Assembly (NCBI GenBank): GCA_964390265.1
Contig: CAYMHI010000002.1
Span: 4,254 to 68,253 of the forward strand
Direction: 5' to 3'
Length of the DNA: 64,000 nucleotides
From: an uncultured Candidatus Saccharibacteria bacterium
GTDB taxonomy: Bacteria; Patescibacteriota; Saccharimonadia; CAILAD01; BJGX01
The stretch's first letter is position 1; each line of letters opens with the position of its first letter. The notes beneath the pieces are model-generated. The model had not been told where the DNA came from. It ran no database searches and saw nothing but the letters and a program-made list of their open reading frames with translations. Both the position numbers and the translations under genes were made by a program. Below, piece by piece: positions 4,334 to 52,202 of the stretch.

Positions 4334-4616
4334 TTAGTATTGTGGATAACTATGTGTATAAGTTGTGCAAACTGTGTGTATATGGCCGGTATCTATACAC
4401 AACTCTTACACAAACAATCTGTGGTTTAAAACCTAGGGGTGGAAAAAGTCTAGTTATGCATAGTCTGTACCCCACTCAATCACAACCTTACACACAAAGC
4501 ACAAGAGTTATTTTTAAGCCTAGCATAAGTAAAATAATTGCTTATACCCACTATCCACAATACCTACTATTACTACTACTAAAGAATATATATAAATATG
4601 ATAAGATGAGGAGTAT
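4334..4616. promoter_or_regulatory. dnaA-dnaN intergenic oriC candidate (DnaA boxes plus AT-rich unwinding element)
   Basis: Perfect reverse box TGTGGATAA at 4341-4349; cTATCCACA at 4552-4560; several 7/9 boxes; AT-rich tract 4561-4616. The track ORF 4342..4620 here is judged spurious. Confidence 0.55.
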
Positions 4617-5717
4617 ATGAAACTTTCTGTATTACAAAGTAATTTAAATAAAGCATTAAGTGTTACTAGTAGATTAATTCAGACTAATAACAGCCTACCA
4701 GTACTAAGTAATGTATTATTACAAACCAAAGATGGTCGTCTAGAGCTACAAGCTACAAACTTAGAAATAGCTATTTCTTATAAGATTGGCGCCAAGATAG
4801 AAAAAACTGGTAGTCTAAGTGTCCCCGCTCGCCTGCTTAGTGATCTAATTAACACCCTGCCTAACGATAAAATACAATTAGTACAGGTCAAAGACAATCT
4901 AGAAATTCACACCAACCAGCTTAATTCAGTAATTAATGGTATAGCAGCTAGTGAGTTCCCTAAGATTCCTGAGGTTAAAACTACTAAGCAATTTAGTATT
5001 GCAGTTAATGATTTTGTAGACGGCTTAGAGTATGTGTTGCCAGCTGTTAGCCTAGATGAGTCGCGACCGGTATTAACTGGGGTGTATTGTAAGGTAGAAT
5101 CGTCAGTTTTAACTTTTGCCGCTACCGATAGTTACCGTTTAGCTCAATACACTATTTCTGGTGTTAAAATCGATGATATTGAAGTTATTATTCCCCACCG
5201 CACTATTCAAGAGCTAATTCGAATTATTAAAAGTGAATCTATTACTGAGTTAGATGTAGGTGTAAGTGCAACCGAGGTGGTATTTTCATCTAAAAACTTT
5301 ACACTCACCTCACAACTAATTGAAGGTAGTTACCCAGATTACACTAAGATAATTCCACCCAACTCTCAAACATCAGTAGTGATTAATAAAGATGATTTAC
5401 TCAGTGGCCTAAAAATCGCTAGTTTATTCTCTAAAGAAAATGCCAATACTATAAGCCTGGCGGTAGTAAAAAACGGTTTAACAATTCAGTCTCAGGGTGC
5501 GCAGGTAGGTACCAACGAATCTAAACTAGAAGCAAAAACCACCGGTAATAATAAAGAAATTAATCTTAACGCTCGCTATCTTATAGATACCTTATCGGTT
5601 ATTGATAGTAAGTCTATACTATTGTCTCTCAATGACAAGCTCGACCCATGCGTGGTTTCTGCTAATAATAAAAAATCTACCTCCAACATTCATATTATTA
5701 TGCCTTTACGGAGCTAA
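4617..5717 (+). CDS. dnaN: DNA polymerase III beta sliding clamp
   Basis: 366 aa with three-domain clamp-like layout; sits in the canonical position after dnaA. Confidence 0.9.
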   Translation: MKLSVLQSNLNKALSVTSRLIQTNNSLPVLSNVLLQTKDGRLELQATNLEIAISYKIGAKIEKTGSLSVPARLLSDLINTLPNDKIQLVQVKDNLEIHTNQLNSVINGIAASEFPKIPEVKTTKQFSIAVNDFVDGLEYVLPAVSLDESRPVLTGVYCKVESSVLTFAATDSYRLAQYTISGVKIDDIEVIIPHRTIQELIRIIKSESITELDVGVSATEVVFSSKNFTLTSQLIEGSYPDYTKIIPPNSQTSVVINKDDLLSGLKIASLFSKENANTISLAVVKNGLTIQSQGAQVGTNESKLEAKTTGNNKEINLNARYLIDTLSVIDSKSILLSLNDKLDPCVVSANNKKSTSNIHIIMPLRS

Positions 5718-5729
5718 AAGGTAAATTAA

Positions 5730-6782
5730 ATGATAACCCACCTGGCGCTCAAGCAATTTCGTAACCACGCCGCGCTCAATTTAGACTTCAACTCTAATTT
5801 AGTTGCTATTACCGGCCCAAATGCATCTGGTAAGACCAATATTCTAGAAGCTCTCTATATTAGCTCACTTACAAAGTCGTTTAAAAATACCGATAACAAA
5901 CTAGTTCTACATGGAAGTAATTTCTTCACTATAGATAAAGTAGATAATAACAATAATATACATATTAGATTTACCCAGACAGATCTTAGTCGCGCTAAGG
6001 CGCTCAAGGTAAACAAGGTAGCCAAACCTCTTTACTCTATTATTGGTCAGAGCCCAATTACGCTTTTTGAACCTAATGATCTGTATTTACTCACTGGTTT
6101 ACCATCATTGCGACGCAACTACCTAGATAAAATACTTTCACAAGTAGATAAGGCCTACCTACAAAACCTTAGGCTATACAAAAAAATAATTCATCACCGC
6201 AACAGCTTACTGAGGCGAGCTAAAAAGGAAAATGTTAGAAATATAGATGAACAATTGTTTGTATTAAATATTCAACTAGCTAAGCCGGGCTACTACCTTA
6301 CAAAGAAACGCCAAGAGTTTATTAGTAGCTTAGTAAAAAGCTTAAATAATTATTACCAATTAATAAGCGGTGAATCGGCCAAAATAGTAGTAGAATTTCA
6401 TGCGAGCGCTAGCTCTAGTCAAGATTTACTAAATAAAATAGAACTTGCTGTGCAAAAAGACAGGGCTTGCGGGTTTAGTACAGTGGGCCCGCACAAAGAA
6501 GATTTCAATGTATCACTGCGGGGTCATAACTTAACAGACTCTGCCTCGCGAGGAGAGCTTAGGAGCTTAGTGTTGGCCTGCAAGCTCTCAGAACTAGACT
6601 ATATAGAAAAGAAGCTCTCACGCCGCCCTACGTTACTACTAGACGATGTCTTAAGTGAGTTAGACGACAAACGTCAAAAGTTTTTACTAAGTAGTTTGAG
6701 TATGCAGCAGACTTTCTTAACTACCACCCACTTACCAGATAATTTAAAACTAAAATTTCAACATATTGAGTTACCACTATGA
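5730..6782 (+). CDS. recF: DNA replication/repair protein RecF
   Basis: 350 aa; Walker A GPNASGKTNILEA; an SMC-like signature; LLLDDVLSELD Walker B. Confidence 0.9.
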   Translation: MITHLALKQFRNHAALNLDFNSNLVAITGPNASGKTNILEALYISSLTKSFKNTDNKLVLHGSNFFTIDKVDNNNNIHIRFTQTDLSRAKALKVNKVAKPLYSIIGQSPITLFEPNDLYLLTGLPSLRRNYLDKILSQVDKAYLQNLRLYKKIIHHRNSLLRRAKKENVRNIDEQLFVLNIQLAKPGYYLTKKRQEFISSLVKSLNNYYQLISGESAKIVVEFHASASSSQDLLNKIELAVQKDRACGFSTVGPHKEDFNVSLRGHNLTDSASRGELRSLVLACKLSELDYIEKKLSRRPTLLLDDVLSELDDKRQKFLLSSLSMQQTFLTTTHLPDNLKLKFQHIELPL

Positions 6783-7075: not shown

Positions 7076-7855
7076 TTAATCACCAGTCAAGTTATCTAGT
7101 TTTATTTTTGAACCTGGCGGAATACTATCTGAGTTTATTAGTTTTGCAAGTGTAGGATTATCGGCGGTTAAAACATAGCTTTTTCTATCCACTTTAGTAC
7201 TGGCAAGAAAATCACTGATAGACTTAGCAGTATATGCTATCTCACTTTCTGGATAAGGAGGAGTTAGGGTTGGATAAAACAAATCTTTAACTACTACAAC
7301 GGTATTAGTTTTACCATTACTATAGTTAATCTTACCCCCTACAATTGCGTAGTTTTGAGTATTATAGGGTAAAAAATTAGTTATAGTGTTAGTTGCTGGC
7401 TTAGGGTCGGTGTCTTCTATTTGTAGTTTCTGTTGTGCCTCAGTTAAGTCAGAAAATGGAATGTATTTAGTCTTAAAATTAATCTTAGTATTTTTTAATA
7501 CATCTCCTTTATTAGACACAATTTCTTTTATTGTAATTGTGTATCTTTGATTAATTTTCAAAGTATATAGTTTTAATATTAAAGTTTTTTTATCAACACT
7601 TATTCCACTTACTATAGAGTTGTTATTGCTATCACCCAAAGTAATTTTACTAGCATCAATTTCTTTATTAAAGTTAATATTTAACTGGGTTGATGATGAT
7701 GGGAAGTTTTGGTTAGCTTCAGGTAAAGTATCAACCAGCCTAAATTTTTCAAAAGATTCTCTATTAAAACTGTAAATTACTATTCCTATAAAAATTATAA
7801 CTATAGCCACTATAACCGATATTAAAATATATTTGTTCTCAAATAATTTATTCAT
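7076..7855 (-). CDS. bitopic membrane protein, T4SS-associated (VirB8-like topology?)
   Basis: 259 aa with an N-terminal TM helix (ILISVIVAIVIIFIGIVIY) and an extracytoplasmic domain. Its stop overlaps the start of the upstream hydrolase gene, suggesting the same operon. Confidence 0.4.
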   Translation of the reverse strand: MNKLFENKYILISVIVAIVIIFIGIVIYSFNRESFEKFRLVDTLPEANQNFPSSSTQLNINFNKEIDASKITLGDSNNNSIVSGISVDKKTLILKLYTLKINQRYTITIKEIVSNKGDVLKNTKINFKTKYIPFSDLTEAQQKLQIEDTDPKPATNTITNFLPYNTQNYAIVGGKINYSNGKTNTVVVVKDLFYPTLTPPYPESEIAYTAKSISDFLASTKVDRKSYVLTADNPTLAKLINSDSIPPGSKIKLDNLTGD

Positions 7856-8961
7856 TGTACCCTCATAAAACCGGTTAAGTATGGCGCATTAATACTATGG
7901 GTTGATTGTTTTACTTGGTCGCTTTCGTTACCGCCAATAGATGTGTATATACTTACACCATCATAACTAATTACTAAGTTAACATGACTTGGGTAGGGCG
8001 ATATACCTTCTTTGTAAATCGCCACATCACCGGGTTGTGGTTTGAAGCCCTGTTCGCCCTTTGGATGATAGAAGCCATTCTGAATAGCGTAATCTAATAT
8101 TCCTTGCGCTGAACCTATTACTCCATCACCACCACCTTTATTAAGTGGCTGACCGGCTTCATTAAATATATAACTTATAAAGAATGCGCACCAAGGATTA
8201 CTGCCACCACCAAACTTACTAGGGTCTTGTGCGCCACCATTCCAGGCTGCTAGTTCTCTTTTGGCAACATCAACTACCCCTGTATTTACAGTTGGTCCAG
8301 CATCATCACAAGCGTCGCTATTAGTAGAGTCTGGAGTAGTTGTAGGGGTTGTAGGTGCAGCACCCCCTGAAGCCTGTAAATACCTCGCGAAGTCTGGTGC
8401 ATCGTTATATAGTAATGGAATTTCCGCACCTTGGCCGGCATTAAAAGCCGCCACCACACTATTAGCATAGGCAATATCGGCCGCATTTGGATTATTTATA
8501 TTAGCCGGTTCATAATGGCTGACTGCTAGTTTGAAAACATCTTCACCTAATGTTCTTATTTTTGTAGCATATTCTATATAGGCCACAGCATCTTGCATAG
8601 CCTCAGGCGCATCTTTTGCACGTGCAAAAGGAATAGCAGGAGGATAAGCTTGTTTTACCGAGTTCCATGTACGGTTGACGTATTGGTATTTACCTGATGC
8701 TGTTGATTCTGGGTTTTGAGCTGTAGGATCACCACCACTTTCAACTGACATTATAGCTCTTAGAAGTTTATCTTCAAACCCACCACTAGCAGGAGTGGAC
8801 GTGCTTGTGCTAGAGCCACAATCGGTTTGATCGTACCAAAAACGCTTCTCTATCTCTAATCGCTGTTCTCTATTAAGTGCAAATGTTTGAAGTGGTATAG
8901 CTATAAACCCAACCACTATAAGTATTAAAAATGTTTGTATTATTCTTTTCATATCAACCAC
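7852..8961 (-). CDS. secreted peptidoglycan hydrolase with lytic transglycosylase (SLT) and CHAP domains (PrgK/TcpG/VirB1-like)
   Basis: 369 aa; N-terminal TM/signal. SLT-like block LLRAIMSVESGGDPTAQNP...SGKYQY. C-terminal CHAP domain with catalytic Cys (GGSNPWCAFFISYIF) and His (SHVNLV). Confidence 0.7.
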   Translation of the reverse strand: MVDMKRIIQTFLILIVVGFIAIPLQTFALNREQRLEIEKRFWYDQTDCGSSTSTSTPASGGFEDKLLRAIMSVESGGDPTAQNPESTASGKYQYVNRTWNSVKQAYPPAIPFARAKDAPEAMQDAVAYIEYATKIRTLGEDVFKLAVSHYEPANINNPNAADIAYANSVVAAFNAGQGAEIPLLYNDAPDFARYLQASGGAAPTTPTTTPDSTNSDACDDAGPTVNTGVVDVAKRELAAWNGGAQDPSKFGGGSNPWCAFFISYIFNEAGQPLNKGGGDGVIGSAQGILDYAIQNGFYHPKGEQGFKPQPGDVAIYKEGISPYPSHVNLVISYDGVSIYTSIGGNESDQVKQSTHSINAPYLTGFMRVQ

Positions 8962-11900
8962 CTGTCACCGACCAGTGCCACGGCTCTGACTCTAAATTAA
9001 TTAGACCATAGTTAGCCGCGTTGGCTACTAACCAATTAAAACCCGGGCTTCCTCTGTCAATCGTATTACCACCTGTAGTAAAGTCAATAGCTAAACCTTT
9101 TTCGTGGTTAGATGTACCAGGTATTGCAGTAGGTACTCTACAGCTACTAGGTGAAGCAGTGAAAACATCTGGGCAGCCATTAGTAGTACGTAAACCAACT
9201 TGTTCTTCATACGATCTAAAACCACCGCCACCAAATAATATGCCAGCCGCCTGTGCGTCTTTTAGTAATTTATTAAGCTGACTTGCTAGTGATACGTTAA
9301 TATCTATTACTCCACCACCTGGTGCGGCAACATCACAAACCATTATCTTATTAGCAGGTACCTGACCTGGTCCATAAGTTTGGGCAACTCCGTTAACTAG
9401 GTTTGGGCCAGTACTAGTAGTTATGCCTGGTTCACTTGGGCAAGGGGTACCGCTTGTGTCGGCATCGGGGTCGGGTGCACCAATCGGGCCAGTTGGTCCG
9501 CTAGTGCCGCTATTAGCATAAATACTTGGGTTGTCGGCATCACTACTTAGGCTTGCCATTTGGTCTAATACTATATTGTAGTACACATACATACGGTACT
9601 TAACCGGTAAAGAATTAATATCTTTGGCGTCTTGTAGTATTTCTTTACAGTCATTAAATTTATTAAACTTACCCTCTGGATCATCGGTTCGTACTGCCGC
9701 AACGTTTCCGTTAGCATCTAATATTACACCCCTGTGCCACTCTGGGTGAAAGATAAACCATTGTACTGCATTAGCCCCGGGATACTTATCTCTAATACTA
9801 TCAGTTAATGTTCGATTACCAATTTCGCTCAAAGGCTTTGTTCTAATCTTAAAGTACTGGCTTGTAGGTATTTTTTGTTTAAAGCACGAATCATAATGTG
9901 TGAGTTTACGTTTTTCTGCCGGGCTACCATTAGCTTTTAGGTTTTCTATATAGGTAGCATTTTCTAGCATACTAATATTAAAATCACCCTGGGGTATGCC
10001 GGCCGTATCTATCTTGAGGTATTTGTCTCCGCTGGTATTGGCAGCAAAGGCCTTATTGTGCTGACCAAAGCTATAGTAAAGCGCTGAACTATGAATATTT
10101 GCGAGTGATTTTAATGGGTTAAGTAGTTGTTTAAACAATCCTGTTCCTGCTGTCATGGCGGTTTTGGGGGTAACGGTATTTTGATTAATAATACTTCGCG
10201 CCGATCGTATATTATCTAATGCAAACAGCCTATAGCCTACCCCCCTGTCCTTTTCTTCTTCTCTACGTAGGTTTTCAGAGTCGATAGCTACTTGATTGGC
10301 CTCGGTCTCCGTTAAAAACCTTCCACCTATTCTTAAAAAGTAATCATTCATTAATTGCCTAAACCCAGCGGCCTGACGATTATAATTATCTGGGCCAGAT
10401 TCTAAACCACTAACTGCAGTAACCGAGCCAGTTCTTACAAAAGAAGTAATAATCTCTTTGAGGCCAAAATCTGATGGGCTATTAAATACTCCCTCTGATT
10501 GAGCAACAATTTCTAGCTTGAGATCGCGATAGCCATCAGCCACCATTTTATTACCAGTATCAGCTAATGCATCGCCAAATATTCCACCCGGGGCGCTTAT
10601 AAAAACGCATCCATTTTTTAATTTCTGTATAGCCTCTGTGTCATATAAAGCAGTCTGTCTGGCGTTGTAAGACCTTGTAGAGGTGGCCTCTGGGTTTTGT
10701 TGTACTCCATTTAAGGAGTTATGTACGTCAATTGAGTATGCAGCACTACTAGCCCAATTATCTTGCTGAGCAATAGTAGAGTTGTTTTCTACATTGCTGA
10801 GTTGATCGGCCTTGCGGGTGTCGGCTAGAGTGGTAATTTTAATTGCGCCCCGTTCTGTACTAGCTAGTCTACTCTCTATCGCTTTTCTAGCGTTCTTAGC
10901 AGACTCCTCTTCTGTAGGGTCGTCACCTAAATCTAAAAATCCCATAATAAAAGGACAAAGTGTATTGGCTAAACCAGTGGTTACGACTCGCGATTGACCA
11001 TTATCTTTAGTGGGAATATTAATATAACTCTGTAATTGCATATCATAAGGACTTTTACCTGCGGCCATATCTTCATACATCTTGTTGATACCTGCAACCA
11101 AGTTAGACTTGTCGTCGCTGTAAGGTATTTGATCGTCTGGGTTGGCGGCGTTATATTCTCTTACGGCGTCTCTATAGCTATTTTGAATTATATCTATTTG
11201 GCCCTGATAATTAGAGAAATCAATTGAATCCTCTTTTTTTGGAGTTATACGGTTAAGAGTTTTATCATATACATACCTGTCTACCTCGGCTTTATTTCTT
11301 CTAAACTCCTCAGTATCTTTTTTGCTTGCATAATTGAGCCTAACGTCGGCTAACTGGTTAATTTCTCTAGTAACTGGCTGACGAGCCATCAAATTAAATA
11401 TTGGGTACTGTTGTTGAATGCAGTTTGTGGCTAGTATGTTATTGCTTAGATTGTCAATCTGAATTGTAGTGTCCGTCTTGGTGTTTACTACGTAATCTGG
11501 TACAAACCGTACTCTACCCTCACTATTAATTACTTGCTTTAGCTTGAGTTCATAGCCGCAACCTTTTTTATCAAGTGTTTGGTACTGAGCTTTCTTCCAA
11601 TCAATTTTTGAAAGACGCTCAAGGGTAGAGCCTGGCGGTATAGTTGTAGGTGCTGCAGCAATAGCAGTGTTGGGTCCGTGGTAATCTACCTCTCCAAGGC
11701 CAGGTAGAGCATCTATAGCATCTTTTAGAATATTTTTGCCAAAGGCCCTAGCGAGGTCATAGCCATAATCTCGCAATTTTTGATTAGTTAAGACTTTACC
11801 AATAATTTCGTCGGGGTTTTGCATGATATAAAAAAATGTAAATAGTGGTATAAGCGAAATAACCACAGTTACTAATAAAATTACCCCTACTCCGCGTATA

Positions 11901-12397
11901 CCCCCTGCTTTTTCAAAAGCAGTACCCGCACCTGGCGCTATAAATTTATTTAACCCCTCCTTAATTGCTAAATTAGCTGCTTGCTCGGCTTTACCGGCTT
12001 TGGCCTCGGTATTTTTTTCCATAGGGGTTTTAGGTACTTTTTTACCAGCCTTACCTCCAGCCCCACCATCAGACTTATCGGATAATTTTTTTAAAGCATC
12101 TAAAGTTTTGGATTGCTTAGGATCTTTTGCGGCTCCGCCCCCTGCAGCACTTTTAGCTAATTTATCGCCGGCACCACCTTTTACACCTAGTGGAGCAGAT
12201 TTTAAGTTATCCATGCTTGTTGGTAAATCTTTGGCTGGATTAAAAGCTGATTGCTTACCAGCTCCTCCACCCATTTCTTTACCGGCGCTACCCTTGTCTA
12301 GTGGGCTAACTGGCAAATTACCGTCACCCAAGCCCTCACTTTGGCCAGGCATGTTTTTCTTACTATTGCCTTCGCTTTTTTTGGGGTTATTATCCAT
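8954..12397 (-). CDS. large membrane-anchored surface protein with C-terminal M15 (VanY-like) zinc peptidase domain
   Basis: 1147 aa. Gly/Lys/Ala-rich low-complexity N-terminus and a single TM (GVGVILLVTVVISLIPLFTFFYIM). C-terminus carries SNHEKGLAIDF (SxHxxGxAxD) and EPWHW, hallmarks of LAS/VanY M15 peptidases. Confidence 0.6.
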   Translation of the reverse strand: MDNNPKKSEGNSKKNMPGQSEGLGDGNLPVSPLDKGSAGKEMGGGAGKQSAFNPAKDLPTSMDNLKSAPLGVKGGAGDKLAKSAAGGGAAKDPKQSKTLDALKKLSDKSDGGAGGKAGKKVPKTPMEKNTEAKAGKAEQAANLAIKEGLNKFIAPGAGTAFEKAGGIRGVGVILLVTVVISLIPLFTFFYIMQNPDEIIGKVLTNQKLRDYGYDLARAFGKNILKDAIDALPGLGEVDYHGPNTAIAAAPTTIPPGSTLERLSKIDWKKAQYQTLDKKGCGYELKLKQVINSEGRVRFVPDYVVNTKTDTTIQIDNLSNNILATNCIQQQYPIFNLMARQPVTREINQLADVRLNYASKKDTEEFRRNKAEVDRYVYDKTLNRITPKKEDSIDFSNYQGQIDIIQNSYRDAVREYNAANPDDQIPYSDDKSNLVAGINKMYEDMAAGKSPYDMQLQSYINIPTKDNGQSRVVTTGLANTLCPFIMGFLDLGDDPTEEESAKNARKAIESRLASTERGAIKITTLADTRKADQLSNVENNSTIAQQDNWASSAAYSIDVHNSLNGVQQNPEATSTRSYNARQTALYDTEAIQKLKNGCVFISAPGGIFGDALADTGNKMVADGYRDLKLEIVAQSEGVFNSPSDFGLKEIITSFVRTGSVTAVSGLESGPDNYNRQAAGFRQLMNDYFLRIGGRFLTETEANQVAIDSENLRREEEKDRGVGYRLFALDNIRSARSIINQNTVTPKTAMTAGTGLFKQLLNPLKSLANIHSSALYYSFGQHNKAFAANTSGDKYLKIDTAGIPQGDFNISMLENATYIENLKANGSPAEKRKLTHYDSCFKQKIPTSQYFKIRTKPLSEIGNRTLTDSIRDKYPGANAVQWFIFHPEWHRGVILDANGNVAAVRTDDPEGKFNKFNDCKEILQDAKDINSLPVKYRMYVYYNIVLDQMASLSSDADNPSIYANSGTSGPTGPIGAPDPDADTSGTPCPSEPGITTSTGPNLVNGVAQTYGPGQVPANKIMVCDVAAPGGGVIDINVSLASQLNKLLKDAQAAGILFGGGGFRSYEEQVGLRTTNGCPDVFTASPSSCRVPTAIPGTSNHEKGLAIDFTTGGNTIDRGSPGFNWLVANAANYGLINLESEPWHWSVTGG

Positions 12398-12511: not shown

Positions 12512-14371
12512 CTAACCCGTCGCTTGTTCTACCGAAATATCTTGTCCATCGCCTACACTACTAACTGCCTTGCCGGCATCTATAAGGTCTTGAGGGTTAG
12601 TAGTGATTAGCTCTGTTTCGGTGGGACTAGCCAAAACATGCAGAATAATGTGACTAAGCCCAGCAAAGAACAGACCCTCACCTACCGGAAACTGACTAAG
12701 GCGTTTTTTCTCTTCACTAGTTAGTTTAAAAGTCTCAGCTACTACATCTACTGCAGCTGGGTTTTGTTTGAGTAATAGCTGTAGGCTTGAGTTATTTACA
12801 ATTGCTCTACCTAAGCGTGTACCTAAAAAGTCCTCTACATCTTGAGAGATGGTAGTTAAGCCCAAAAAGTACTTACGAGCGCGTTTAGCAATAGAGAACA
12901 TAAACATTGCTGAGTCTTGATACTGCATTAACTGCCAAGCCTCATCAATTATTAATATGCGCTTTTTCTTCTCAGACTTTACTCTGTTCCAGACATAGTT
13001 AAGGACTATATACATACCAATTGGTCGTAGCTCGTCTTCAAGGTCGCGAATATTAAACACCACAAATGGGTTATTAAGATTAACATTACTTTGTTGTGAG
13101 AATATACCAGAGAAAGTGCCTTCGGTAAATCGTCGCAACCTGGCAGCCAGTGCCGGGCCATTCCCACCCATTTGATTAAGGTTGTTGTATAAGTCAAGCA
13201 TCACGGGCGGCTCGGCCGTATGAGTTAGTGGATCGTTGGTAATGCCTTTTTGACCGTAGGTGTTAATAAGCGCAATGTCCAAATCTGACTCCTCGGTAGA
13301 GCTTAGCTCGCCCATCATTAGCCGCAGCAGACCATGAAGCATAATAATATTTGCTCGCAAGGCGTTATCGGCCTCATCAGAGTCTATAGCTGTGGGAATA
13401 TCAAAGGGGTTTACATGGCTATCGCTGGTAAGACTAAGCTGCAAAAAACTACCACCTACTGCGTCGCACAGTGTTCTGTATTCGTTTTCTGGGTCTATTA
13501 CTATTACCTCGGTGCCAAACATCAGCGAACGCAAGGCCTCTAGCTTAACGGCAAAAGATTTACCCGCACCAGACTTTGCAAACACCACCATATTGGCGTT
13601 TTCAAGACTAAACCTATCAAATAACACCAACCCGTTGTTGTGGCGATTAATGCCATAGAGTATACCCTCTTGGTTACTAAGATTGGCTGTAGTAAATGGG
13701 AAGGTGGTAGATATTGCACCGGTGTCCATATTTCGCTCTACCCCCAACAGGTCGGTGCCAAGCGGCAGCGTAGAGGTAAAGCCCTGCTCCATTTGAATAG
13801 TAGCTGGCTTGGTATAAATAAGGCTAGTGCCAAAGGTAGATTCTATTTTTTTAACTAGCTCATCGAGCTCTTCTAGGTTGCGCCCGTAGATTGTTACGTA
13901 TAAACCTAGTCTAAAAAATCGCTCCTCCCCCACCTGCAATTTGTCGCGCATTTCTTCGGCATCGCTTATTGAGGCCTCTAGTGCTGGGTCTCTTACCTTG
14001 CCTTTTTCGGCGTTAATTGAGTAACTTGCCTCAAGCTGAGTTACTTTCTTTTTGAGGTTTTTTAGAACTACCTGGCTTTCTACTGGCTCAATGTTGAGAC
14101 TAATATCTATAACCTCATCCATATTAATTATTGGGCTTAGCCAGCCGGTAAACAGACTGCGTGGGTAGGCGTAAACAAATAGGGTTCTGGCAAAGCGCGA
14201 ACCTATTCTTATAAAATTGGCCTCTACCTGAATGGAGCTAGGGGCAATCACATCGCGCAATGTCACCACTCCTTGGCGGTATACTTGTTGAGCCTTTTGT
14301 TCAGCACTCATGTTGGCCTGTTGCTGAGGTGTTAGCTTAGGTGCGGCAGGTTTTTTATTACCAAATATCAT
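12512..14371 (-). CDS. virB4: VirB4/TrbE/CagE-family T4SS ATPase (middle and ATPase domains)
   Basis: 619 aa; Walker A VVFAKSGAGKSF; Walker B ILIIDEAWQLM; DVIAPSSIQVEANFIRIG...LFVYAYP block typical of VirB4. Starts immediately after the TAA stop of the upstream ORF (14369-14374 = TAA then ATG on the minus strand). Confidence 0.85.
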   Translation of the reverse strand: MIFGNKKPAAPKLTPQQQANMSAEQKAQQVYRQGVVTLRDVIAPSSIQVEANFIRIGSRFARTLFVYAYPRSLFTGWLSPIINMDEVIDISLNIEPVESQVVLKNLKKKVTQLEASYSINAEKGKVRDPALEASISDAEEMRDKLQVGEERFFRLGLYVTIYGRNLEELDELVKKIESTFGTSLIYTKPATIQMEQGFTSTLPLGTDLLGVERNMDTGAISTTFPFTTANLSNQEGILYGINRHNNGLVLFDRFSLENANMVVFAKSGAGKSFAVKLEALRSLMFGTEVIVIDPENEYRTLCDAVGGSFLQLSLTSDSHVNPFDIPTAIDSDEADNALRANIIMLHGLLRLMMGELSSTEESDLDIALINTYGQKGITNDPLTHTAEPPVMLDLYNNLNQMGGNGPALAARLRRFTEGTFSGIFSQQSNVNLNNPFVVFNIRDLEDELRPIGMYIVLNYVWNRVKSEKKKRILIIDEAWQLMQYQDSAMFMFSIAKRARKYFLGLTTISQDVEDFLGTRLGRAIVNNSSLQLLLKQNPAAVDVVAETFKLTSEEKKRLSQFPVGEGLFFAGLSHIILHVLASPTETELITTNPQDLIDAGKAVSSVGDGQDISVEQATG

Positions 14372-15283
14372 TTATGATTTACCTCCTGTTGCTGTAGTCG
14401 ATTGAGCCGAACTTGCAGGTGGGTTATTTGGCGCCACTTGCTGCCCTGGGCTAGGTTGTGGTTGAGCTTGCATAGCCTGGCGGTTGGCGGCTGAGTAAAG
14501 ATCGTCGGGCGTAGGTTCTTTGGGTGTAGGTGGGTGCACTTGGGCTGGGCCGCCGGTGCGCGTAACTGCCGGAGTGCCTATATCATCAACACTCGTGAGG
14601 CTTTGGCTTTGGCTCTCAGCCACATTGTAAGAGTTGTAAAACAGCTCAATTATCTCTTGAGTATTGAGTATGGCCGAGCGTACACCTATTTGGGCCAAGC
14701 CTTGGGCTACTTGGTTGGTGCGCTGCATTAACTCGTTTTTGTGTTTCTCATAATCACCCATTGACTGAGTGGCCTCAGCCGACTCATTAGATGCCCCACG
14801 CAATTTAGTAAGAATATTGGCCTTAGCAATGCCGGCCATATAGTATGGCACCACTACGTAAAAACGTTTTTCCATAATATTTACTTCATCGAGCAAACTT
14901 TTAATGTTGTCTACATAATCGTCCATTAGTGTGGCAAGCAACGGGTTGGGCTGGTCGCTTTGAATTTTTTCTAGCTTGCCCAAGTAATCGTCTAGGTCAA
15001 TTTTACGAGACTGTATAACTATTTGAATAGGGTGATGTAAGCCATTCACAAAGCCCTGAAAACCAAACTCAATAGCGTCTTTTTCGTCTGGGCTTTTAAG
15101 ATCAAAGTTGGTAGGTGAGCAAATAATTACCATACGCAAGCTGCCATCGCGCATTATTACTACCCCATCTTTTATTTCAGAAAAAGGCAAATGACTCTGA
15201 GTGCTCATTTGCTTATTCTCTTGTTTTGGCGGTGGTGTAATTGAGTTTACGTATTCTTGCTGTTGGGGGGTAACTTGTGCCAT
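14372..15283 (-). CDS. VirB4 N-terminal-domain-like protein (upstream piece of an apparently split VirB4)
   Basis: 303 aa. LPFSEIKDGVVIMRDGSLRMVIICSPTNFDL...FQGFVNGL follows the VirB4 N-terminal pattern (lPYs..d.vi.tKdGsl..v.k..G..fe). C-terminal Pro/Gln-rich linker ends in TAA directly before the ATG of the ATPase ORF, in the same frame. Confidence 0.5.
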   Translation of the reverse strand: MAQVTPQQQEYVNSITPPPKQENKQMSTQSHLPFSEIKDGVVIMRDGSLRMVIICSPTNFDLKSPDEKDAIEFGFQGFVNGLHHPIQIVIQSRKIDLDDYLGKLEKIQSDQPNPLLATLMDDYVDNIKSLLDEVNIMEKRFYVVVPYYMAGIAKANILTKLRGASNESAEATQSMGDYEKHKNELMQRTNQVAQGLAQIGVRSAILNTQEIIELFYNSYNVAESQSQSLTSVDDIGTPAVTRTGGPAQVHPPTPKEPTPDDLYSAANRQAMQAQPQPSPGQQVAPNNPPASSAQSTTATGGKS

Positions 15284-15368: not shown

Positions 15369-16199
15369 CTAACTACTTTGCTGCTTGAGCTGTACGCTGG
15401 CGCCAGGCTCAAGAGGCTGCGGTTGAGCCTGCTCGTTGGCTCTTAGCGCCACTTGCTTAATAGTTAGCCCTCCGCCCTGCATGGCTACTTGCGTAGCATT
15501 GGGGCTAGGGGCTGTTGAGGGCTGGGTAGAGCTGGGCTCTATTACGCTACCAGGCTTATTAATTGCCTGTTGTACTTGGTTGGCGGCTTTGTCGCGAGTG
15601 TTTTCTTTGGCGCTTTGCAGTAGCTCGCCCACGGCAGCCGCACGTTGGCTGTTTTCGTCGAGTACATCGTCTTTTTGGGTGGCCAATTGATCGGGGCCTT
15701 GGGCATCACCTTGGGCTTGCGGGCCTATTATACGCTGCGCATATATTGTGGCCTCGTTATCACCTTCGTGCAATTGAATAGTAGGATCTTTAAAATTACC
15801 TCTGGTATCTATTATATTAGCGAGCTGTTTGAGCTGGCCGGTGGTGACTGTTGAGGTTTTCTCGAGATTTTCTTTGGGTTTCTCGGGCTCTTTTACTATT
15901 ACGTCTTTTCTATCGTCTTTTATCCATATGCGTCGGCGCGGCACTATTAAAAATCTTATAAAGGCTACTACGTAGTCTTCAAACGGCACGCCCTCGCGCG
16001 AGCCAAAGCCCAGTAGTAAAAAAAACCCAGTAACCGGCAGGGCAAATATTACTGCCACTATTATAGAGAAGCTAAATATTCGCCACATCAAAAATCCCCA
16101 TAATAAACCAATTATTACGTATATAAATTGCTTTACCGAGAGTGGCCCCAGTATTTTGTCTTCGGTTTCTACATTTTGCGGTACTTTGTATTGACCCAT
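15369..16199 (-). CDS. VirB3/PrgI/ConD-like small membrane protein with disordered C-terminal extension
   Basis: 276 aa. Two N-terminal TM helices (FIYVIIGLLWGFLMW, FSFSIIVAVIFALPVTGFFLLLGF). Position immediately upstream of VirB4 matches Gram-positive systems (ConD-ConE). Confidence 0.4.
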   Translation of the reverse strand: MGQYKVPQNVETEDKILGPLSVKQFIYVIIGLLWGFLMWRIFSFSIIVAVIFALPVTGFFLLLGFGSREGVPFEDYVVAFIRFLIVPRRRIWIKDDRKDVIVKEPEKPKENLEKTSTVTTGQLKQLANIIDTRGNFKDPTIQLHEGDNEATIYAQRIIGPQAQGDAQGPDQLATQKDDVLDENSQRAAAVGELLQSAKENTRDKAANQVQQAINKPGSVIEPSSTQPSTAPSPNATQVAMQGGGLTIKQVALRANEQAQPQPLEPGASVQLKQQSS

Positions 16200-16253: not shown

Positions 16254-18965
16254 CTAATTTTTTATTTTAACTAAGTGTATTGAGTTTGGGTTTGCTAAGT
16301 ACTCTTGGTAGGTAACCATTTGCAGCCCTAGAGAATTGTAGTCAACTCTATAGAACCCAAGCTTGTCGGTTAGTACAGATGTTGGGTGGGTAAGCAATAT
16401 ATCTTGCGCCATCACACCTACGTATTCTGTGTTGCTCCATAGGTACTTAAACTTATAAATTTTTATACCGTTTTCAAGATTATTTACCAACTTAACATTT
16501 CTTTTGAGTCTAATATCTGATCGCGGTACTGGAGCTGGTGTTGGAGGGGGTGCAGGTGGCTGATTAATGCCTTGAGTCGCAAGGTCGAAGTTTGCCCTAC
16601 CCTCGTATACTGCCCTAGCTCTTGCCACTGCAGCTTGAGGGGTTTCACCTGGTCGCGGTGTTGCAGTTTGTGGATCTTTTGCCGCGTGTCTCGCTGTGGC
16701 AGCTCTATGAACCTGTTGATAAGCTGCATATTCTCTTGTTGCTCCTGCAGGCAGAATACCAGCATCAATATCTGATTTAATAGCAGCAGGATCGCTATAC
16801 TGGTCGAGCATTGTGTTATGTAGATTGGTATATGCCCTTGCTTCTTTTACCTGCGCAGGTGTTGTTGGATCTAGTCTCCCCTGTCTCTCCATATCCCACG
16901 CTATAACAGATTCGGCATATGTTTTACCTCCAGCAGCTCTAGCTAAGGCATCGTATTTTTGCCTTTCTGAAGTGCTCATAGGGGCTTTACCATCTAATAT
17001 TGCAGCCCTAGCATCACGTTGTTTTTCGGCATGTCCTTTTTCAATAACACCTTTAGCAACGCCAGCTCTTAAAGTTGGCTTACCATCTCTTCCAGTTTCC
17101 CCTGAAATTCTCTGTTGCTCCTCAAGGTCCATAAGCCCAATATCTTTCTTTTGAGCTTCTTTTACAGAGTCCTCAAGCCTCAAGCCTTTCTGTTTAACAC
17201 CTCTCCCTGCCTTTGTGCCCTTAAGTAAACTAGATTCACTAGCTTTACCAAATCCTTTGGCTTTGAGCTCTGCCAATTTACCCTCCTGAGCACTTTTACT
17301 GACTGCTCCAGTAGCTGCTTTGCCAGCCCTAGTATCTTTGGCGTTGGCTATTGCTTTACTACCCGCCTCTTTGGCCTTGGCCATAATTGCTCCACTCATC
17401 TTGAGGGTTTTGGGTATCAATACAAGCACAATTATAGGTATTAATATTGATATGATTGAACCCATAAAATTGGCAAAACCTCCACTAGGCCCACCAGCGG
17501 TTAGGTCGCCCTCAGCAAACAAGAAAGAGAATACAGCACCCAGTACAAAAAGTAAGTTTACAAGTAAGAACATTATGCTTAGCTTAAGAAAGTACTGCCA
17601 CCATTTTTTAAAGAACTGTTCGGTGTTGGGTAGTACCCAGGCCGCAAAAGCTAGCGGAGCCGATAGTACCAGGCCAAGCAAGAATAGATAACGAGCCACT
17701 ATGTATATAAATGCTATTATCGCAACAACCAAGCCCACTAGCATTGTGAGATTGAATATTGCAAACTTACCCAAAGCCTCTAACATATCTCCACCATTTT
17801 TAATTCTATCTATCTGAGGCACGATAGTTTGCGAAAATGCCTCTGCGGGTGTAGAGCCGGTAACACCCGGAAACGCTCTAAGGATTTGATTAGGTAGCGC
17901 AATGGCCAATATATTGCCAAGGTCTAGCACTGCCTGGCATATCAGTAATGAAAACTGAGTAAGTATTATAGCTACTATTAGCTTAGGCAAAGCCTTTTTG
18001 ACCGTATAATTATCAAGACCAGGTATGGCTACAAAGTTAGCCAGTATAATAAAAAGAAATATTAGTATATAAAAAGAATTTGCTAAAGTAATCATACTGT
18101 TTACAGCATTTTTTAGGTTTTGGCTGTTAGTAAGATCGGGGTTCTCGAGTAACTTGGTAACAGCTGTAATCATCTTTGTTAGAGTGTCGGTTAAGAACTC
18201 GCTAATAGGACAGAGTACAAAACTAAGGGCGCTATCTAGATTGTCCTCGCATCCACCACTTGCCTCCAACAACTCAGCCTGCACCTCTTCTGTAAATGTA
18301 GTCGTATCTAAACCCTCACCATTAAAAGCACTTCCATCCTCCTTAACACAATTTCCAGGATTTGTAACTCCACACCTGTCGCCTGCCGGGTCTGTAAGTG
18401 CATCGTCTATATTACCAACAGCAAAAAGGTGATTAGGGTCTGAGTTGTCAGTTACAGCGCCAGTTGCATCAGATGCATATGCAAATTTTGCACTTTCTTG
18501 CGTTAAATTGAAGTGTAGACAGTTTCTAGATAACAATCCATTATTGTCTGGGTTACAAAATATTGGGTAGCCTGCATTTTGACTAAATTGAGGATTGTAA
18601 AAATAATCCCTACAAGTTGCATTTGGTGTAAGTGTTCCGCATATCAAGGTGGGATAAGTACTACCTATTTGTGAATTCCAGTCTGCTGCGTTTAGTAATG
18701 CCCCAACCGGTGTATTACTGACTATTCCACCTACCCGTGGTATGGCATTAGGATCTACTGTAAGAGTATCAAAAAAACCTAAAATAGAATTCATCAAACT
18801 ACCAACGGCATTTGGTCTTTTGCATTCAATATGCCCACTATCTTGCCATTGGCACAAAACCTCACTAGATAACGCTTGCGCCGGTTTGGCATTCAAAAAC
18901 AATCCGGCAAATACAAACACAAAAGCCAGCAAAGGTAATATTAAAAATCGGGAGAGTTTATTCAT
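16254..18965 (-). CDS. VirB6/TrbL-like polytopic membrane protein with N-terminal Cys-rich secreted domain and C-terminal peptidase S74 intramolecular-chaperone domain
   Basis: 903 aa. Signal peptide MNKLSRFLILPLLAFVFVFAGLFLNAKPAQA. Five to seven TM helices in the middle. Ala/Lys-rich region, then SDIRLKRNVKLV...IKIYKFKY...GVMAQDIL...YRVDYNSLGL matching the S74 consensus (SDxRLKxNI...GxIAQE...VDY). Confidence 0.6.
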   Translation of the reverse strand: MNKLSRFLILPLLAFVFVFAGLFLNAKPAQALSSEVLCQWQDSGHIECKRPNAVGSLMNSILGFFDTLTVDPNAIPRVGGIVSNTPVGALLNAADWNSQIGSTYPTLICGTLTPNATCRDYFYNPQFSQNAGYPIFCNPDNNGLLSRNCLHFNLTQESAKFAYASDATGAVTDNSDPNHLFAVGNIDDALTDPAGDRCGVTNPGNCVKEDGSAFNGEGLDTTTFTEEVQAELLEASGGCEDNLDSALSFVLCPISEFLTDTLTKMITAVTKLLENPDLTNSQNLKNAVNSMITLANSFYILIFLFIILANFVAIPGLDNYTVKKALPKLIVAIILTQFSLLICQAVLDLGNILAIALPNQILRAFPGVTGSTPAEAFSQTIVPQIDRIKNGGDMLEALGKFAIFNLTMLVGLVVAIIAFIYIVARYLFLLGLVLSAPLAFAAWVLPNTEQFFKKWWQYFLKLSIMFLLVNLLFVLGAVFSFLFAEGDLTAGGPSGGFANFMGSIISILIPIIVLVLIPKTLKMSGAIMAKAKEAGSKAIANAKDTRAGKAATGAVSKSAQEGKLAELKAKGFGKASESSLLKGTKAGRGVKQKGLRLEDSVKEAQKKDIGLMDLEEQQRISGETGRDGKPTLRAGVAKGVIEKGHAEKQRDARAAILDGKAPMSTSERQKYDALARAAGGKTYAESVIAWDMERQGRLDPTTPAQVKEARAYTNLHNTMLDQYSDPAAIKSDIDAGILPAGATREYAAYQQVHRAATARHAAKDPQTATPRPGETPQAAVARARAVYEGRANFDLATQGINQPPAPPPTPAPVPRSDIRLKRNVKLVNNLENGIKIYKFKYLWSNTEYVGVMAQDILLTHPTSVLTDKLGFYRVDYNSLGLQMVTYQEYLANPNSIHLVKIKN

Positions 18966-49972: not shown

Positions 49973-50001
49973 TTGACAAACACCTCATAGTTTGATACAA
50001 T
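49973..50001 (+). promoter_or_regulatory. consensus sigma70 promoter with a ~230-nt AT-rich leader before the high-GC gene
   Basis: TTGACA, 17-nt spacer, TACAAT; the start codon is ~235 nt downstream. Confidence 0.45.
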
Positions 50002-50239
50002 ACTTGGCGATACGGTGACCAGGGTAAAACCAATTGTCGTGTCGACACTTTGACAAAGCAAGGATCATATATAAGTAAACAACAATCATGTTGACTGTTG
50101 TGCTGCATAGACCGGTTTACAAATAAATGTTAGACCGGCGCATGCAGTACAACAGCAGTAAACAAAAAAGATAATACGCTTTTTTGTATGGTAGCCCAAA
50201 CCAATTAAGCTACCGTTGCCCCAGGAGGGGTATATCGAC

Positions 50240-51820: not shown

Positions 51821-52202
51821 CTTCTTCCGCCGGTATCAGGAACCGGCGACAACCAACGCCGATTAACTTCGGCAAAAAACCTGAATTTCGTCCCCCACGT
51901 AGGGGCCGGTAGGAGATCGATTTCTGATCTGTGGACATGGTCCTTAACTACCGGCCCCTGGGGGCTGCAACAAGAAAGAGAATATATATGATATCTTGCT
52001 TTGTCTCTTTCCCAGAAAACCTATTATTTGGCTGAGATTCTGAAGCTAGTTCAGAATGACGAATTAGGCTTTGTGAGAAAGAACACCAAAACACCACCAT
52101 ACATTAGGTGGTGTTTTGTATATTAAACAATTATAATACCACTTGTAATTGTACCTACCACCACTATAGCTCACAGGCCGAGCCGAAAGGGGTACACAAG
52201 CT

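What the first reader, a model, noticed from the sequence alone, without database searches (positions are those of the whole stretch)
16254..18965. VirB6-like channel protein fused to a peptidase-S74 intramolecular-chaperone autoproteolytic domain
The 903-aa protein has a signal peptide, a Cys-rich secreted N-domain, a VirB6/TrbL-like polytopic core and an Ala/Lys-rich spacer. Its last ~90 residues read SDIRLKRNVKLVNNLENGIKIYKFKY...GVMAQDILLTHPTSVLTDKLGFYRVDYNSLGL. This matches the S74 / C-terminal intramolecular chaperone domain consensus known from phage tail spikes, endosialidases and some bacterial surface fibres, which autocleaves at the Ser of the SD-RLK motif after trimerisation. Finding it at the end of a T4SS membrane component is unusual. 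It implies trimerisation-dependent self-processing of the extracellular part of the secretion apparatus, reminiscent of phage fibres.
Basis: partly seen in the sequence, partly recalled or inferred. Interest (0 to 1): 0.6.

Follow-up and report, generated by a model that had tools for sequence, protein, structure and literature searches.

The report
VirB6 channel protein with self-cleaving tail domain
A core membrane subunit (VirB6) of the type IV secretion machine of a Saccharibacteria-like ultra-small bacterium ends in an intact copy of the trimerise-then-self-cleave domain known from phage tail fibres. The combination recurs in a whole clade of these bacteria and was not described in the literature I could search.

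Summary
ORF 16254-18965 (-) encodes 903 aa in this order:
- a signal peptide;
- a 10-Cys N-domain;
- a VirB6/TrbL_3 helical core (Pfam above cut-off; predicted fold closest to R388 TrwI/VirB6);
- a 270-aa basic Ala-rich helical tail;
- a 15-aa Pro-rich linker;
- an 88-aa Peptidase_S74 / intramolecular-chaperone auto-processing (ICA) domain.

The S74 call is borderline on the whole protein (19.6 bits; cut-off 22) but passes on the domain alone (24.8 bits). All 56 aligned relatives also match. Ser816, Asp817 and Lys821 are invariant, and Arg819 is at least 90% conserved. The AF2 model (pLDDT 91.7) matches phage ICA models.

The fusion is not a one-off. About 45 of the top 149 relatives of the domain are VirB6 proteins. 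Ten of 11 Saccharimonadales loci keep the order pilins | VirB6-S74 | PrgI | VirB4.

- **"Extracellular"** is unproven. Charge and helix-count topology favours a cytoplasmic tail; the R388 structure and exported proteobacterial relatives argue the opposite.
- **"Fibre-like"** fails. No trimeric fibre or beta-helix lies upstream, and VirB6 is a pentamer in R388 while S74 domains act as trimers.

Cleavage and trimerisation are inferred, not shown. I rate it a new variant of a known kind, of moderate-to-high interest.

The parts
18873..18965 (-). Signal peptide (aa 1-31, MNKLSRFLILPLLAFVFVFAGLFLNAKPAQA|LS)
   Evidence: Hydrophobic segment 1-30 with max Kyte-Doolittle score 2.52, followed by an AxA site. 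A31 is conserved in at least 90% of 56 homologues. No dedicated signal-peptide predictor was available.
18123..18872 (-). Secreted N-terminal domain (aa 32-281), acidic, 10 Cys, no known family
   Evidence: Composition. No Pfam hit. C239 and C252 are nearly invariant or invariant across homologues. AF2 confidence is mixed.
17376..18122 (-). VirB6/TrbL_3 hydrophobic helical core (aa 282-530)
   Evidence: PF19590 at 28.6 bits, above cut-off 23. AF2 helices 282-312, 319-364, 394-434, 436-443, 449-485 and 496-544. The six best Foldseek PDB hits are R388 TrwI/VirB6 (8rt9_F E 1.4e-3, prob 1.0, TMt 0.45).
16566..17375 (-). Basic Ala/Lys/Arg-rich tail (aa 531-800), disordered at 551-595, then helical
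   Evidence: 47 K+R against 34 D+E, and no Cys. AF2 predicts helices at pLDDT about 80-89 for aa 600-797. No Pfam hit. The tail is shared only with the closest relatives P0004/P0005.
16521..16565 (-). Pro-rich linker (aa 801-815, NQPPAPPPTPAPVPR) ending at the predicted P1 residue R815
   Evidence: Translation. AF2 pLDDT is below 50 at 808-813. In 46 VirB6-S74 proteins the 20 residues before the Ser are 53% Pro+Gly on average.
16257..16520 (-). Peptidase_S74 / ICA domain (aa 816-903); the predicted released fragment of 88 aa
   Evidence: PF13884 at 24.8 bits on the domain alone. AF2 pLDDT 91.7. BFVD Foldseek E 2.7e-6, TM 0.66, rmsd 1.3 A to phage ICA proteins. PHROGs phrog_6121 E 1.8e-15, matching the profile's C-terminal end.
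16503..16520 (-). Catalytic motif S816-D-I-R-L-K821 (Ser nucleophile, Lys base, Arg819 candidate oxyanion residue)
   Evidence: S, D and K are invariant and R is at least 90% conserved in 56 domains. The motif aligns with SDERLK, ADLRAK and SDRRIK of tail fibre 8jov, MYRF 7dc3 and long tail fibre 6f45.
15369..16199 (-). PrgI/VirB3-like gene immediately downstream
   Evidence: PF12666 E 4e-14. It has the same position in 10 Saccharimonadales loci.
14372..15283 (-). Conserved 303-aa T4SS-locus protein of unknown family
   Evidence: No Pfam hit. Found at E 1e-53 to 1e-60 between PrgI and VirB4 in nine of the ten syntenic related loci; L012 ends within PrgI.
12512..14371 (-). VirB4-type ATPase
   Evidence: P-loop_TraG, AAA_10 and CagE_TrbE_VirB hits.
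7852..8961 (-). VirB1-like cell-wall hydrolase (SLT + CHAP)
19059..20855 (+). Divergent array of four VirB2-like T4SS pilin genes (19059-19661, 19712-20008, 20103-20468, 20484-20855)
   Evidence: PF18895 T4SS_pilin E 1e-10 to 3e-13. The same divergent arrangement occurs in related loci.

Best explanation
This is the genuine VirB6 subunit of the chromosomal, origin-proximal, monoderm-type T4SS of a Saccharimonadales (Patescibacteria) bacterium. It is an 'extended VirB6'.

Shown:
- A long, lineage-variable hydrophilic tail ends, after a flexible Pro-rich linker, in a compact 88-aa S74/ICA domain.
- The catalytic motif (Ser816, Arg819, Lys821) is intact.

Inferred mechanism:
1. Once several VirB6 tails are brought together by assembly of the VirB6 oligomer, three ICA domains fold into a trimer.
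2. This positions Ser816 and Lys821, and the Arg815-Ser816 bond is cut.
3. An approximately 10-kDa C-terminal fragment is shed, and the tail ends at ...PAPVPR.

No trimeric fibre lies upstream, and the tail sequence is not conserved among carriers. The domain therefore more likely acts as an oligomerisation sensor or one-shot maturation switch, as in MYRF, than as a folding chaperone for a fibre.

Location is unresolved. Sequence-based topology (N-out, five passes, basic flank after the last helix) slightly favours the cytoplasmic face, next to the VirB4 ATPase.
For: Domain identity:
- PF13884 passes on the isolated domain, and 56/56 relatives match.
- S, D and K are invariant.
- Profile-to-PDB alignments put SDxRLK in register with the tail-fibre and MYRF motifs.
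- The AF2 fold matches phage ICA models, and PHROGs tail and virion families match at their C-terminal ends.

VirB6 identity:
- Pfam, a TrwI/VirB6 fold match, and T4SS synteny.

Selection for the fusion:
- About 45 of the top 149 domain relatives are VirB6.
- There is a clade of 39 representatives plus scattered cases.
- The linker and the fragment length (median 86 aa) are conserved.

Mechanism by family knowledge:
- The Ser-Lys dyad plus an oxyanion Arg become competent only after trimerisation, which makes the domain a 'folding sensor'. It works autonomously in foreign contexts (PMC3742443).

Cytoplasmic lean:
- Family loop charges are +2.1 / -1.2 / +1.0 / +0.8 / -0.7 / +2.6.
- Helix 394-434 is continuous, which gives an odd number of passes.
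Against: - No experiment or multimer model shows trimerisation or cleavage here.
- VirB6 is a pentamer in R388, and AlphaFold3 modelling cited in the 2025 review predicts pentamers for Gram-positive homologues. Three-fold ICA assembly does not fit one complex cleanly.
- Foldseek against solved PDB structures gave no significant match for the domain. The profile-to-PDB E-values are only 0.1-0.3.
- The usual upstream triple beta-helix is absent.
- Against a cytoplasmic location: in the R388 structure only VirB6 helices alpha1-alpha2 are in the membrane. The closest non-VirB6 relatives of the domain sit on Sec/TAT-exported proteins. S74-less relatives have Pro/Ser/Thr-rich tails typical of wall-spanning linkers.
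- Some family members begin M-SDIR..., so they have nothing to cleave off. That hints at a role for the domain itself.
Confidence: 0.55

Rival explanations
1. Extracellular version. Only the first two core helices stay in the membrane, as in R388 TrwI/VirB6. The remaining helices, the tail and the S74 domain lie in the wall zone or on the surface. There the tails trimerise, self-cleave and form a mature appendage around the base of the VirB2-like pilus.
For: - In R388, only VirB6 alpha1-alpha2 are transmembrane and the bulk is periplasmic.
- At least 41 of 70 proteobacterial carriers of the same S74 subfamily have Sec-like signal peptides, and 7 carry a twin-arginine (Tat) motif. Fusions include OMP_b-brl and FecR.
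- S74-less relatives have Pro/Ser/Thr/Gly-rich tails.
- The locus encodes four pilins.
Against: - A strongly basic, conserved flank follows the last hydrophobic helix. The alternating loop charges fit N-out/C-in.
- The AF2 helix count is odd.
- Reporter-based topology of Agrobacterium VirB6 puts the C-terminus in the cytoplasm.
- No fibre-forming sequence lies upstream of the domain.
- The tail and the S74 domain have no Cys, against 10 in the N-ectodomain.
Confidence: 0.3
2. Non-cleaving module. The S74-like domain is kept as a stable C-terminal oligomerisation or docking knob and is never released. It could tie VirB6 tails together or bind a partner such as VirB4, peptidoglycan or the host surface. 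The conserved SDxRLK would then be structural.
For: - Some relatives start directly at M-SDIR or carry only a Gly-rich leader, so cleavage would release nothing useful.
- Tandem S74 repeats exist (P0117, P0118, P0120, P0129).
- The domain is compact and predicted with high confidence as a monomer.
- No upstream cargo fold is conserved.
Against: - Absolute conservation of Ser, Asp and Lys and at least 90% of Arg across VirB6-linked and other members is what catalysis predicts.
- In every characterised ICA protein these residues drive cleavage (PMC3742443).
- The domain is always at the extreme C-terminus behind a flexible linker.
Confidence: 0.12
3. Artefact or accident. The fusion is a misassembly, a read-through of a neighbouring phage tail-fibre remnant, or a neutral recent insertion with no function.
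For: - NCBI labels a homologue 'tail fiber domain-containing protein' (MCA9347165.1).
- The query's closest VirB6 relatives lack the domain.
Against: - The same architecture occurs in independent assemblies, in about 45 divergent 50%-identity cluster representatives and in 10 syntenic GTDB loci.
- There are no phage genes in the locus.
- It is the only S74 hit in the window.
- The query's S74 domain groups with other VirB6-linked S74 domains.
Confidence: 0.03

Closest known systems
C-terminal intramolecular chaperone / ICA domain of phage tailspikes and tail fibres (K1F endosialidase, T5 and T4-like long tail fibres; Pfam PF13884, MEROPS S74)
   Same: - Extreme C-terminal position.
- An SDxRLK motif with the Ser-Lys dyad and an Arg.
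- Sequence profile and predicted core fold.
- Expected self-removal after trimerisation (PMC3742443).
   Different: - The host protein is a polytopic T4SS membrane subunit, not a virion fibre.
- No triple beta-helix or fibre lies upstream, only a Pro/Gly linker.
- The domain is a minimal version of about 86 aa.
- The carrier is probably pentameric.
MYRF (myelin regulatory factor) ICA domain
   Same: An ICA domain in a membrane-anchored cellular protein. It acts as an oligomerisation-dependent self-cleaving switch rather than a fibre chaperone. MYRF (7dc3) is among the top three PDB profile hits.
   Different: - In MYRF the domain lies between the cargo and the membrane anchor, so cleavage frees a transcription factor.
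- Here the domain is terminal, so only the domain itself would be shed.
- MYRF keeps a conserved beta-helix-like segment upstream.
Extended VirB6 proteins (Rickettsiales VirB6 paralogues, MPF-FA VirB6 of 700-900 aa, F-plasmid TraG)
   Same: A VirB6 core plus a large hydrophilic C-proximal extension of unknown function (PMC12857230). For some of these, proteolytic processing of the extension has been reported (my recollection; not checked here).
   Different: None is described with an S74/ICA domain.
R388 TrwI/VirB6 (PDB 8rt9, 7o3v)
   Same: Best structural match of the core. It has the same locus logic, with VirB2-like pilins, VirB3 and VirB4 neighbours.
   Different: TrwI is about 340 aa (my recollection; the solved chains matched here are 193-272 residues) and has no ectodomain, tail or S74 domain. 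Sequence identity is 14-20%.

Membership tests
Peptidase_S74 / ICA domain (PF13884, PROSITE PS51688) | Significant match to the family profile | tested here: met
   The isolated domain scores 24.8 bits against gathering score 22 (E 2.7e-5). All 56 of 56 relatives match, best E 4.4e-11. On the whole protein it scores only 19.6 bits, below the cut-off.
Peptidase_S74 / ICA domain (PF13884, PROSITE PS51688) | Catalytic Ser and Lys five residues apart at the start of the domain, plus a conserved Arg | tested here: met
   S816 and K821 are invariant and R819 is at least 90% conserved in 56 sequences. The motif is in register with SDERLK, SDRRIK and MYRF ADLRAK. Roles are taken from PMC3742443. That R819 is the oxyanion Arg is inferred.
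Peptidase_S74 / ICA domain (PF13884, PROSITE PS51688) | ICA core fold | tested here: met
   The AF2 model has pLDDT 91.7. BFVD gives 16 hits at E<1e-3, the best E 2.7e-6, TM 0.66, rmsd 1.3 A over 70 columns, to 'intramolecular chaperone auto-processing domain' proteins. Caveat: these are predicted structures, and Foldseek against solved PDB chains found nothing.
Peptidase_S74 / ICA domain (PF13884, PROSITE PS51688) | Trimeric beta-helix or fibre segment immediately upstream that the domain chaperones | tested here: not met
   A Pro/Gly-rich linker lies upstream, with pLDDT below 50 at 808-813. Before it is an alpha-helical tail that is not conserved among carriers.
Peptidase_S74 / ICA domain (PF13884, PROSITE PS51688) | Trimerisation-dependent autoproteolysis at the Ser | not testable with these tools
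   No multimer prediction or experiment was available.
VirB6 / TrbL (PF19590 TrbL_3, PF04610) | Profile match | tested here: met
   PF19590 scores 28.6 bits against cut-off 23, at aa 375-555. Of 109 homologues, 91 carry a precomputed PF19590 hit.
VirB6 / TrbL (PF19590 TrbL_3, PF04610) | Five or more hydrophobic helices with a VirB6-like fold | tested here: met
   Helices. The six best PDB hits are TrwI/VirB6, with prob 0.99-1.0 and TMt 0.42-0.48 but modest E-values of 1.4e-3 to 4.7e-2.
VirB6 / TrbL (PF19590 TrbL_3, PF04610) | Encoded in a T4SS locus beside VirB3/PrgI, VirB4, VirB1-like hydrolase and pilins | tested here: met
   The synteny is conserved in 10 Saccharimonadales loci.
VirB6 / TrbL (PF19590 TrbL_3, PF04610) | Pentameric stalk or platform assembly | not testable with these tools
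   Known for R388. Not modelled here.
Extended-VirB6 subgroup | Large hydrophilic C-proximal domain in addition to the hydrophobic core | tested here: met
   There are 373 aa after the last hydrophobic helix. Definition from PMC12857230.
Phage tail fibre / tailspike protein (the database label of homologue MCA9347165.1) | Fibre or beta-helix body in a phage structural gene context | tested here: not met
   There is no fibre domain, and the locus is a chromosomal T4SS next to dnaA/dnaN/recF. The label reflects only the S74 domain.

The most novel reading that the evidence does not exclude
The S74 domain is an assembly-gated proteolytic switch built into the secretion channel. Only when VirB6 subunits oligomerise do the tail ends trimerise and cut themselves. 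That would license the T4SS, which is essential for epibiotic growth in a cultured Saccharibacterium, and release a ~10-kDa fragment. The fragment could itself be a signal or a T4SS cargo. The 3-fold against 5-fold mismatch would then be functional, for example by cross-linking neighbouring machines or leaving uncleaved tails as a timer. This would be a bacterial MYRF-like mechanism and the first self-processing core subunit of a T4SS.
Probability: 0.15. Interest if true: 0.8.

Novelty: new variant of a known kind. Interest (0 to 1): 0.58.

Why it matters
- The Patescibacteria/Saccharibacteria T4SS is essential for epibiotic growth in the one system tested (PMC12102498 and PMC12857230, citing Wang et al. 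2023). What it transports and how it is regulated are unknown.
- The role of the hydrophilic extensions of 'extended VirB6' proteins is explicitly an open question (PMC12857230). A conserved self-cleaving, oligomerisation-sensing domain on that extension gives a concrete, cheaply testable handle: S816A/K821A mutants and fragment detection.
- It raises a stoichiometry puzzle, since ICA domains are trimers and VirB6 is a pentamer.
- It corrects a database label: these VirB6 proteins are named 'tail fiber domain-containing protein'.
- It widens the known use of ICA domains from virion fibres and MYRF to bacterial envelope machinery. The sister fusions in Alphaproteobacteria include outer-membrane barrels and FecR-like proteins.

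Tried and rejected
- A single-sequence phmmer search of the C-terminus against PDB gave only a chance hit.
- The word-indexed homologue search with the full protein returned almost only S74-less VirB6 proteins, which made the fusion look unique. The exhaustive search corrected this.
- The search for related loci with the full-length alignment failed because it had no conserved stretch. The domain alignment was used instead.
- AF2 coordinates are not exposed to scripts. I could not measure on which side of the helix bundle the tail emerges, so topology rests on charges, helix count and literature.
- Pfam on the tail and on the N-domain alone gave no hits.
- The GC content of the S74-coding part (0.35) against the tail (0.475) reflects amino-acid composition. 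I did not take it as evidence of recent transfer.
- I considered and rejected a prophage remnant or misassembly (see rival 3).
- I considered a coiled-coil trimeric stalk in the tail. AF2 shows separate helices, and the tail is not conserved among carriers. I ran no coiled-coil predictor.
Full report
**1. Observation**

The window carries a 903-aa ORF on the minus strand at 16254-18965. The parts, in order:
- a hydrophobic N-terminus ending AQA|LS (aa 1-31);
- an acidic segment with 10 Cys (aa 32-290);
- hydrophobic helices between aa 282 and 530;
- a basic, Ala-rich, Cys-free segment (aa 526-800: 19% Ala, 47 K+R against 34 D+E);
- the Pro-rich stretch NQPPAPPPTPAPVPR;
- SDIRLKRNVKL...IHLVKIKN.

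An identical protein exists in NCBI and in a Logan assembly. An 89%-identical full-length homologue exists in another sample. The ORF is therefore not an assembly artefact.

**2. Context**

The gene lies in a monoderm-type T4SS operon on the minus strand:
- PrgI/VirB3-like, 15369-16199;
- a conserved 303-aa protein of unknown family, 14372-15283;
- VirB4, 12512-14371;
- a 1147-aa protein with a VanY domain, 8954-12397;
- an SLT+CHAP VirB1-like hydrolase, 7852-8961;
- a Big_5 protein, 7076-7855.

Four VirB2-like T4SS_pilin genes are transcribed divergently at 19059-20855. The genes yidC, dnaA, dnaN and recF lie 3-15 kb away. This fits the origin-proximal T4SS described for Patescibacteria (PMC12102498). 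The homologues that carry a source name are labelled Candidatus Saccharibacteria, Saccharimonadales or Patescibacteria.

**3. VirB6 identity**

- Pfam TrbL_3 (PF19590) scores 28.6 bits against a cut-off of 23.
- 109 homologues were found, 91 of them with a precomputed PF19590 hit.
- A full-length AF2 model (pLDDT 77.7) has long helices at 282-312, 319-364, 394-434, 436-443, 449-485 and 496-544.
- Its six best PDB matches are all R388 TrwI/VirB6: 8rt9_F at E 1.4e-3, prob 1.0, TMt 0.45.

**4. S74/ICA identity**

- On the whole protein PF13884 falls just below the gathering score (19.6 against 22 bits).
- On the isolated 98-aa C-terminus it passes (24.8 bits, E 2.7e-5). All 56 aligned relatives match, best E 4.4e-11.
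- In that alignment Ser, Asp and Lys of SDxRLK are invariant and the Arg is at least 90% conserved.
- A profile of the alignment ranks a tail fibre (8jov), MYRF (7dc3) and a long tail fibre (6f45) as the top PDB sequences. The E-values are weak (0.1-0.3), but SDxRLK is in register with SDERLK, ADLRAK and SDRRIK.
- An AF2 model of the domain is confident (pLDDT 91.7). It matches predicted structures of phage 'intramolecular chaperone auto-processing domain' proteins at E 2.7e-6, TM 0.66, rmsd 1.3 A and 37% identity.
- It gave no significant match to solved PDB chains.
- PHROGs families of virion and tail-fibre proteins match at their extreme C-terminal ends (phrog_6121, E 1.8e-15).

**5. The fusion is recurrent**

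- An exhaustive HMMER search with the last 105 aa finds 3687 cluster representatives at E<=1e-3.
- About 45 of the 149 best also contain the VirB6 core, with the domain at the extreme C-terminus.
- Most 'mid-length' Patescibacterial carriers are C-terminal fragments of VirB6 that start at its last hydrophobic helix.
- In GTDB genomes, 10 of 11 Saccharimonadales loci found with the domain keep the order pilins | VirB6-S74 | (0-1 extra gene) | PrgI | 303-aa protein | VirB4.
- In 46 VirB6-S74 proteins the tail between core and Ser has a median of 406 aa and is not conserved in sequence.
- The 20 residues before the Ser are 53% Pro+Gly. P1 is most often Pro. The predicted released fragment has a median of 86 aa.

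A neighbour-joining tree of VirB6 cores shows one large S74 clade of 39 representatives plus at least four scattered occurrences. The query and its 89% relative are nested among S74-less proteins. In a tree of the domains, the query's S74 groups with other VirB6-linked S74 domains. This points to exchange of 3' modules between virB6 genes, or to repeated loss. These are crude NJ trees on a biased sample.

S74-less relatives end in Pro/Ser/Thr/Gly-rich tails with other short conserved tips, such as EPPEPPPGTTE and THNGQTFTQTSSGLYIPKH.

**6. Relatives outside VirB6**

The same compact S74 subfamily is common in Alphaproteobacteria, at the C-terminus of proteins of 75-650 aa.
- At least 41 of 70 have Sec-like signal peptides and 7 carry a twin-arginine (Tat) motif.
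- Sampled architectures include OMP_b-brl + S74 and FecR + S74.
- There are also mini-proteins with (MGGGG)n leaders, proteins starting at M-SDIR, and tandem S74 repeats.

**7. Mechanism**

Established family knowledge (PMC3742443):
- The Ser-Lys dyad and an oxyanion-stabilising Arg become correctly positioned only after the ICA domain folds as a trimer, so the domain acts as a folding or oligomerisation sensor and then cuts itself off.
- It works autonomously in heterologous contexts.

Applied here, as inference: three tail ends associate, Arg815|Ser816 is cleaved, and an 88-aa fragment is released. Nothing fibre-like precedes the domain and the tails are not conserved. I therefore favour a MYRF-like oligomerisation-sensing or maturation role over a classical fibre-chaperone role.

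VirB6 is a pentamer in R388, and AlphaFold3 modelling cited in the 2025 review predicts pentamers for Gram-positive homologues. Three-fold association of the tails is thus a real, unexplained mismatch.

**8. Location**

| | For a cytoplasmic tail | For an extracytoplasmic tail |
|---|---|---|
| Sequence and model | Family-averaged net loop charges alternate +2.1, -1.2, +1.0, +0.8, -0.7, and +2.6 after the last helix. AF2 makes 394-434 one continuous helix, giving five passes from an outside N-terminus. | S74-less tails look like wall-spanning linkers. |
[quoted passage not shown] Reviewers warn that predicted TM counts exceed those observed. |
| Domain relatives | Phage and MYRF ICA domains fold in the cytoplasm. 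| The sister S74 domains sit on exported proteins. |

I lean slightly towards a cytoplasmic tail (about 55:45).

**9. Novelty**

- Full-text searches for VirB6 with intramolecular chaperone, Peptidase_S74 with type IV secretion, and Peptidase_S74 with Patescibacteria found nothing relevant.
- The dedicated survey of Patescibacteria T4SS does not mention the domain.
- A 2025 review states that the role of extended-VirB6 domains is unknown.
- Annotation pipelines do detect the domain, but they name the protein 'tail fiber domain-containing protein' (MCA9347165.1).

Both parts are known families. The combination, its conservation in a clade and its implications are new, so I rate it a new variant of a known kind.

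**10. Verdict**

- Domain identities are near-certain.
- Self-cleavage is likely but untested.
- Location and biological role are open.

Noticed in passing
L018, L021, L004, L010, L023, L073 and other Alphaproteobacteria loci: The same compact S74 subfamily caps many exported alphaproteobacterial proteins. Examples are an outer-membrane beta-barrel (OMP_b-brl) + S74, FecR + S74, small proteins with Sec or TAT signals, and (MGGGG)n-leader mini-proteins. The purpose of a self-cleaving trimerisation domain on an 8-stranded OMP or a FecR-like protein is unexplained.
   Followed up: partly
P0117, P0118, P0120, P0129, P0141: Small proteins carry two or more tandem S74 domains, each with its own SDxRLK motif. 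Self-cleavage would chop them into single domains.
   Followed up: no
L052:6001-6267 and protein P0156: In Saccharibacteria, a roughly 470-490-aa ORF has an N-terminus that looked to me like a ferredoxin-reductase / FAD-binding domain (MHIYKLIENK...GFQPGQYAAI); I ran no domain search on it. It also ends in the S74 domain and is not in a T4SS context. It could be a genuine second carrier or an ORF-calling artefact.
   Followed up: no
P0003-P0012 and P0045-P0085: S74-less Saccharibacteria VirB6 proteins end in low-complexity Pro/Ser/Thr/Gly tails with short, strongly conserved tips. The tips are EPPEPPPGTTE in one group and THNGQTFTQTSSGLYIPKH in another. This suggests alternative C-terminal modules or signals at the same position as S74.
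   Followed up: no
L005:3327-6240, L012:3041-6225: In two Saccharimonadales MAGs the VirB6 core and the tail+S74 part are separate adjacent ORFs. The break is a frameshift, an assembly error or a genuinely split gene.
   Followed up: no
L002, L005, L006, L040, L056 between virB6-S74 and prgI: A variable extra stretch of 1-2.7 kb (one gene or more) sits between VirB6-S74 and PrgI in several loci. It is absent from the window, where the gap is only 54 bp. I did not characterise it.
   Followed up: no
window 14372-15283 (-): A 303-aa protein with no Pfam hit lies between PrgI and VirB4. It is very well conserved (E 1e-53 to 1e-60) at the same position in nine of the ten syntenic related loci (L012 ends within PrgI). 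It may be the TrsD-like component mentioned in PMC12102498.
   Followed up: partly
window 8954-12397 (-): A 1147-aa protein in the T4SS operon has only a C-terminal VanY D-Ala-D-Ala carboxypeptidase domain recognised. It would be a second cell-wall enzyme besides the SLT+CHAP protein.
   Followed up: no
window 2948-6782 and 791-2031: dnaA, dnaN and recF, together with yidC and a KH/R3H (Jag-like) gene, place the T4SS locus within about 15 kb of the probable replication origin.
   Followed up: partly
window 50001-52000: GC content rises to 0.60 here against about 0.43 in the surroundings. No rRNA or other Rfam family was reported there. I did not examine it.
   Followed up: no
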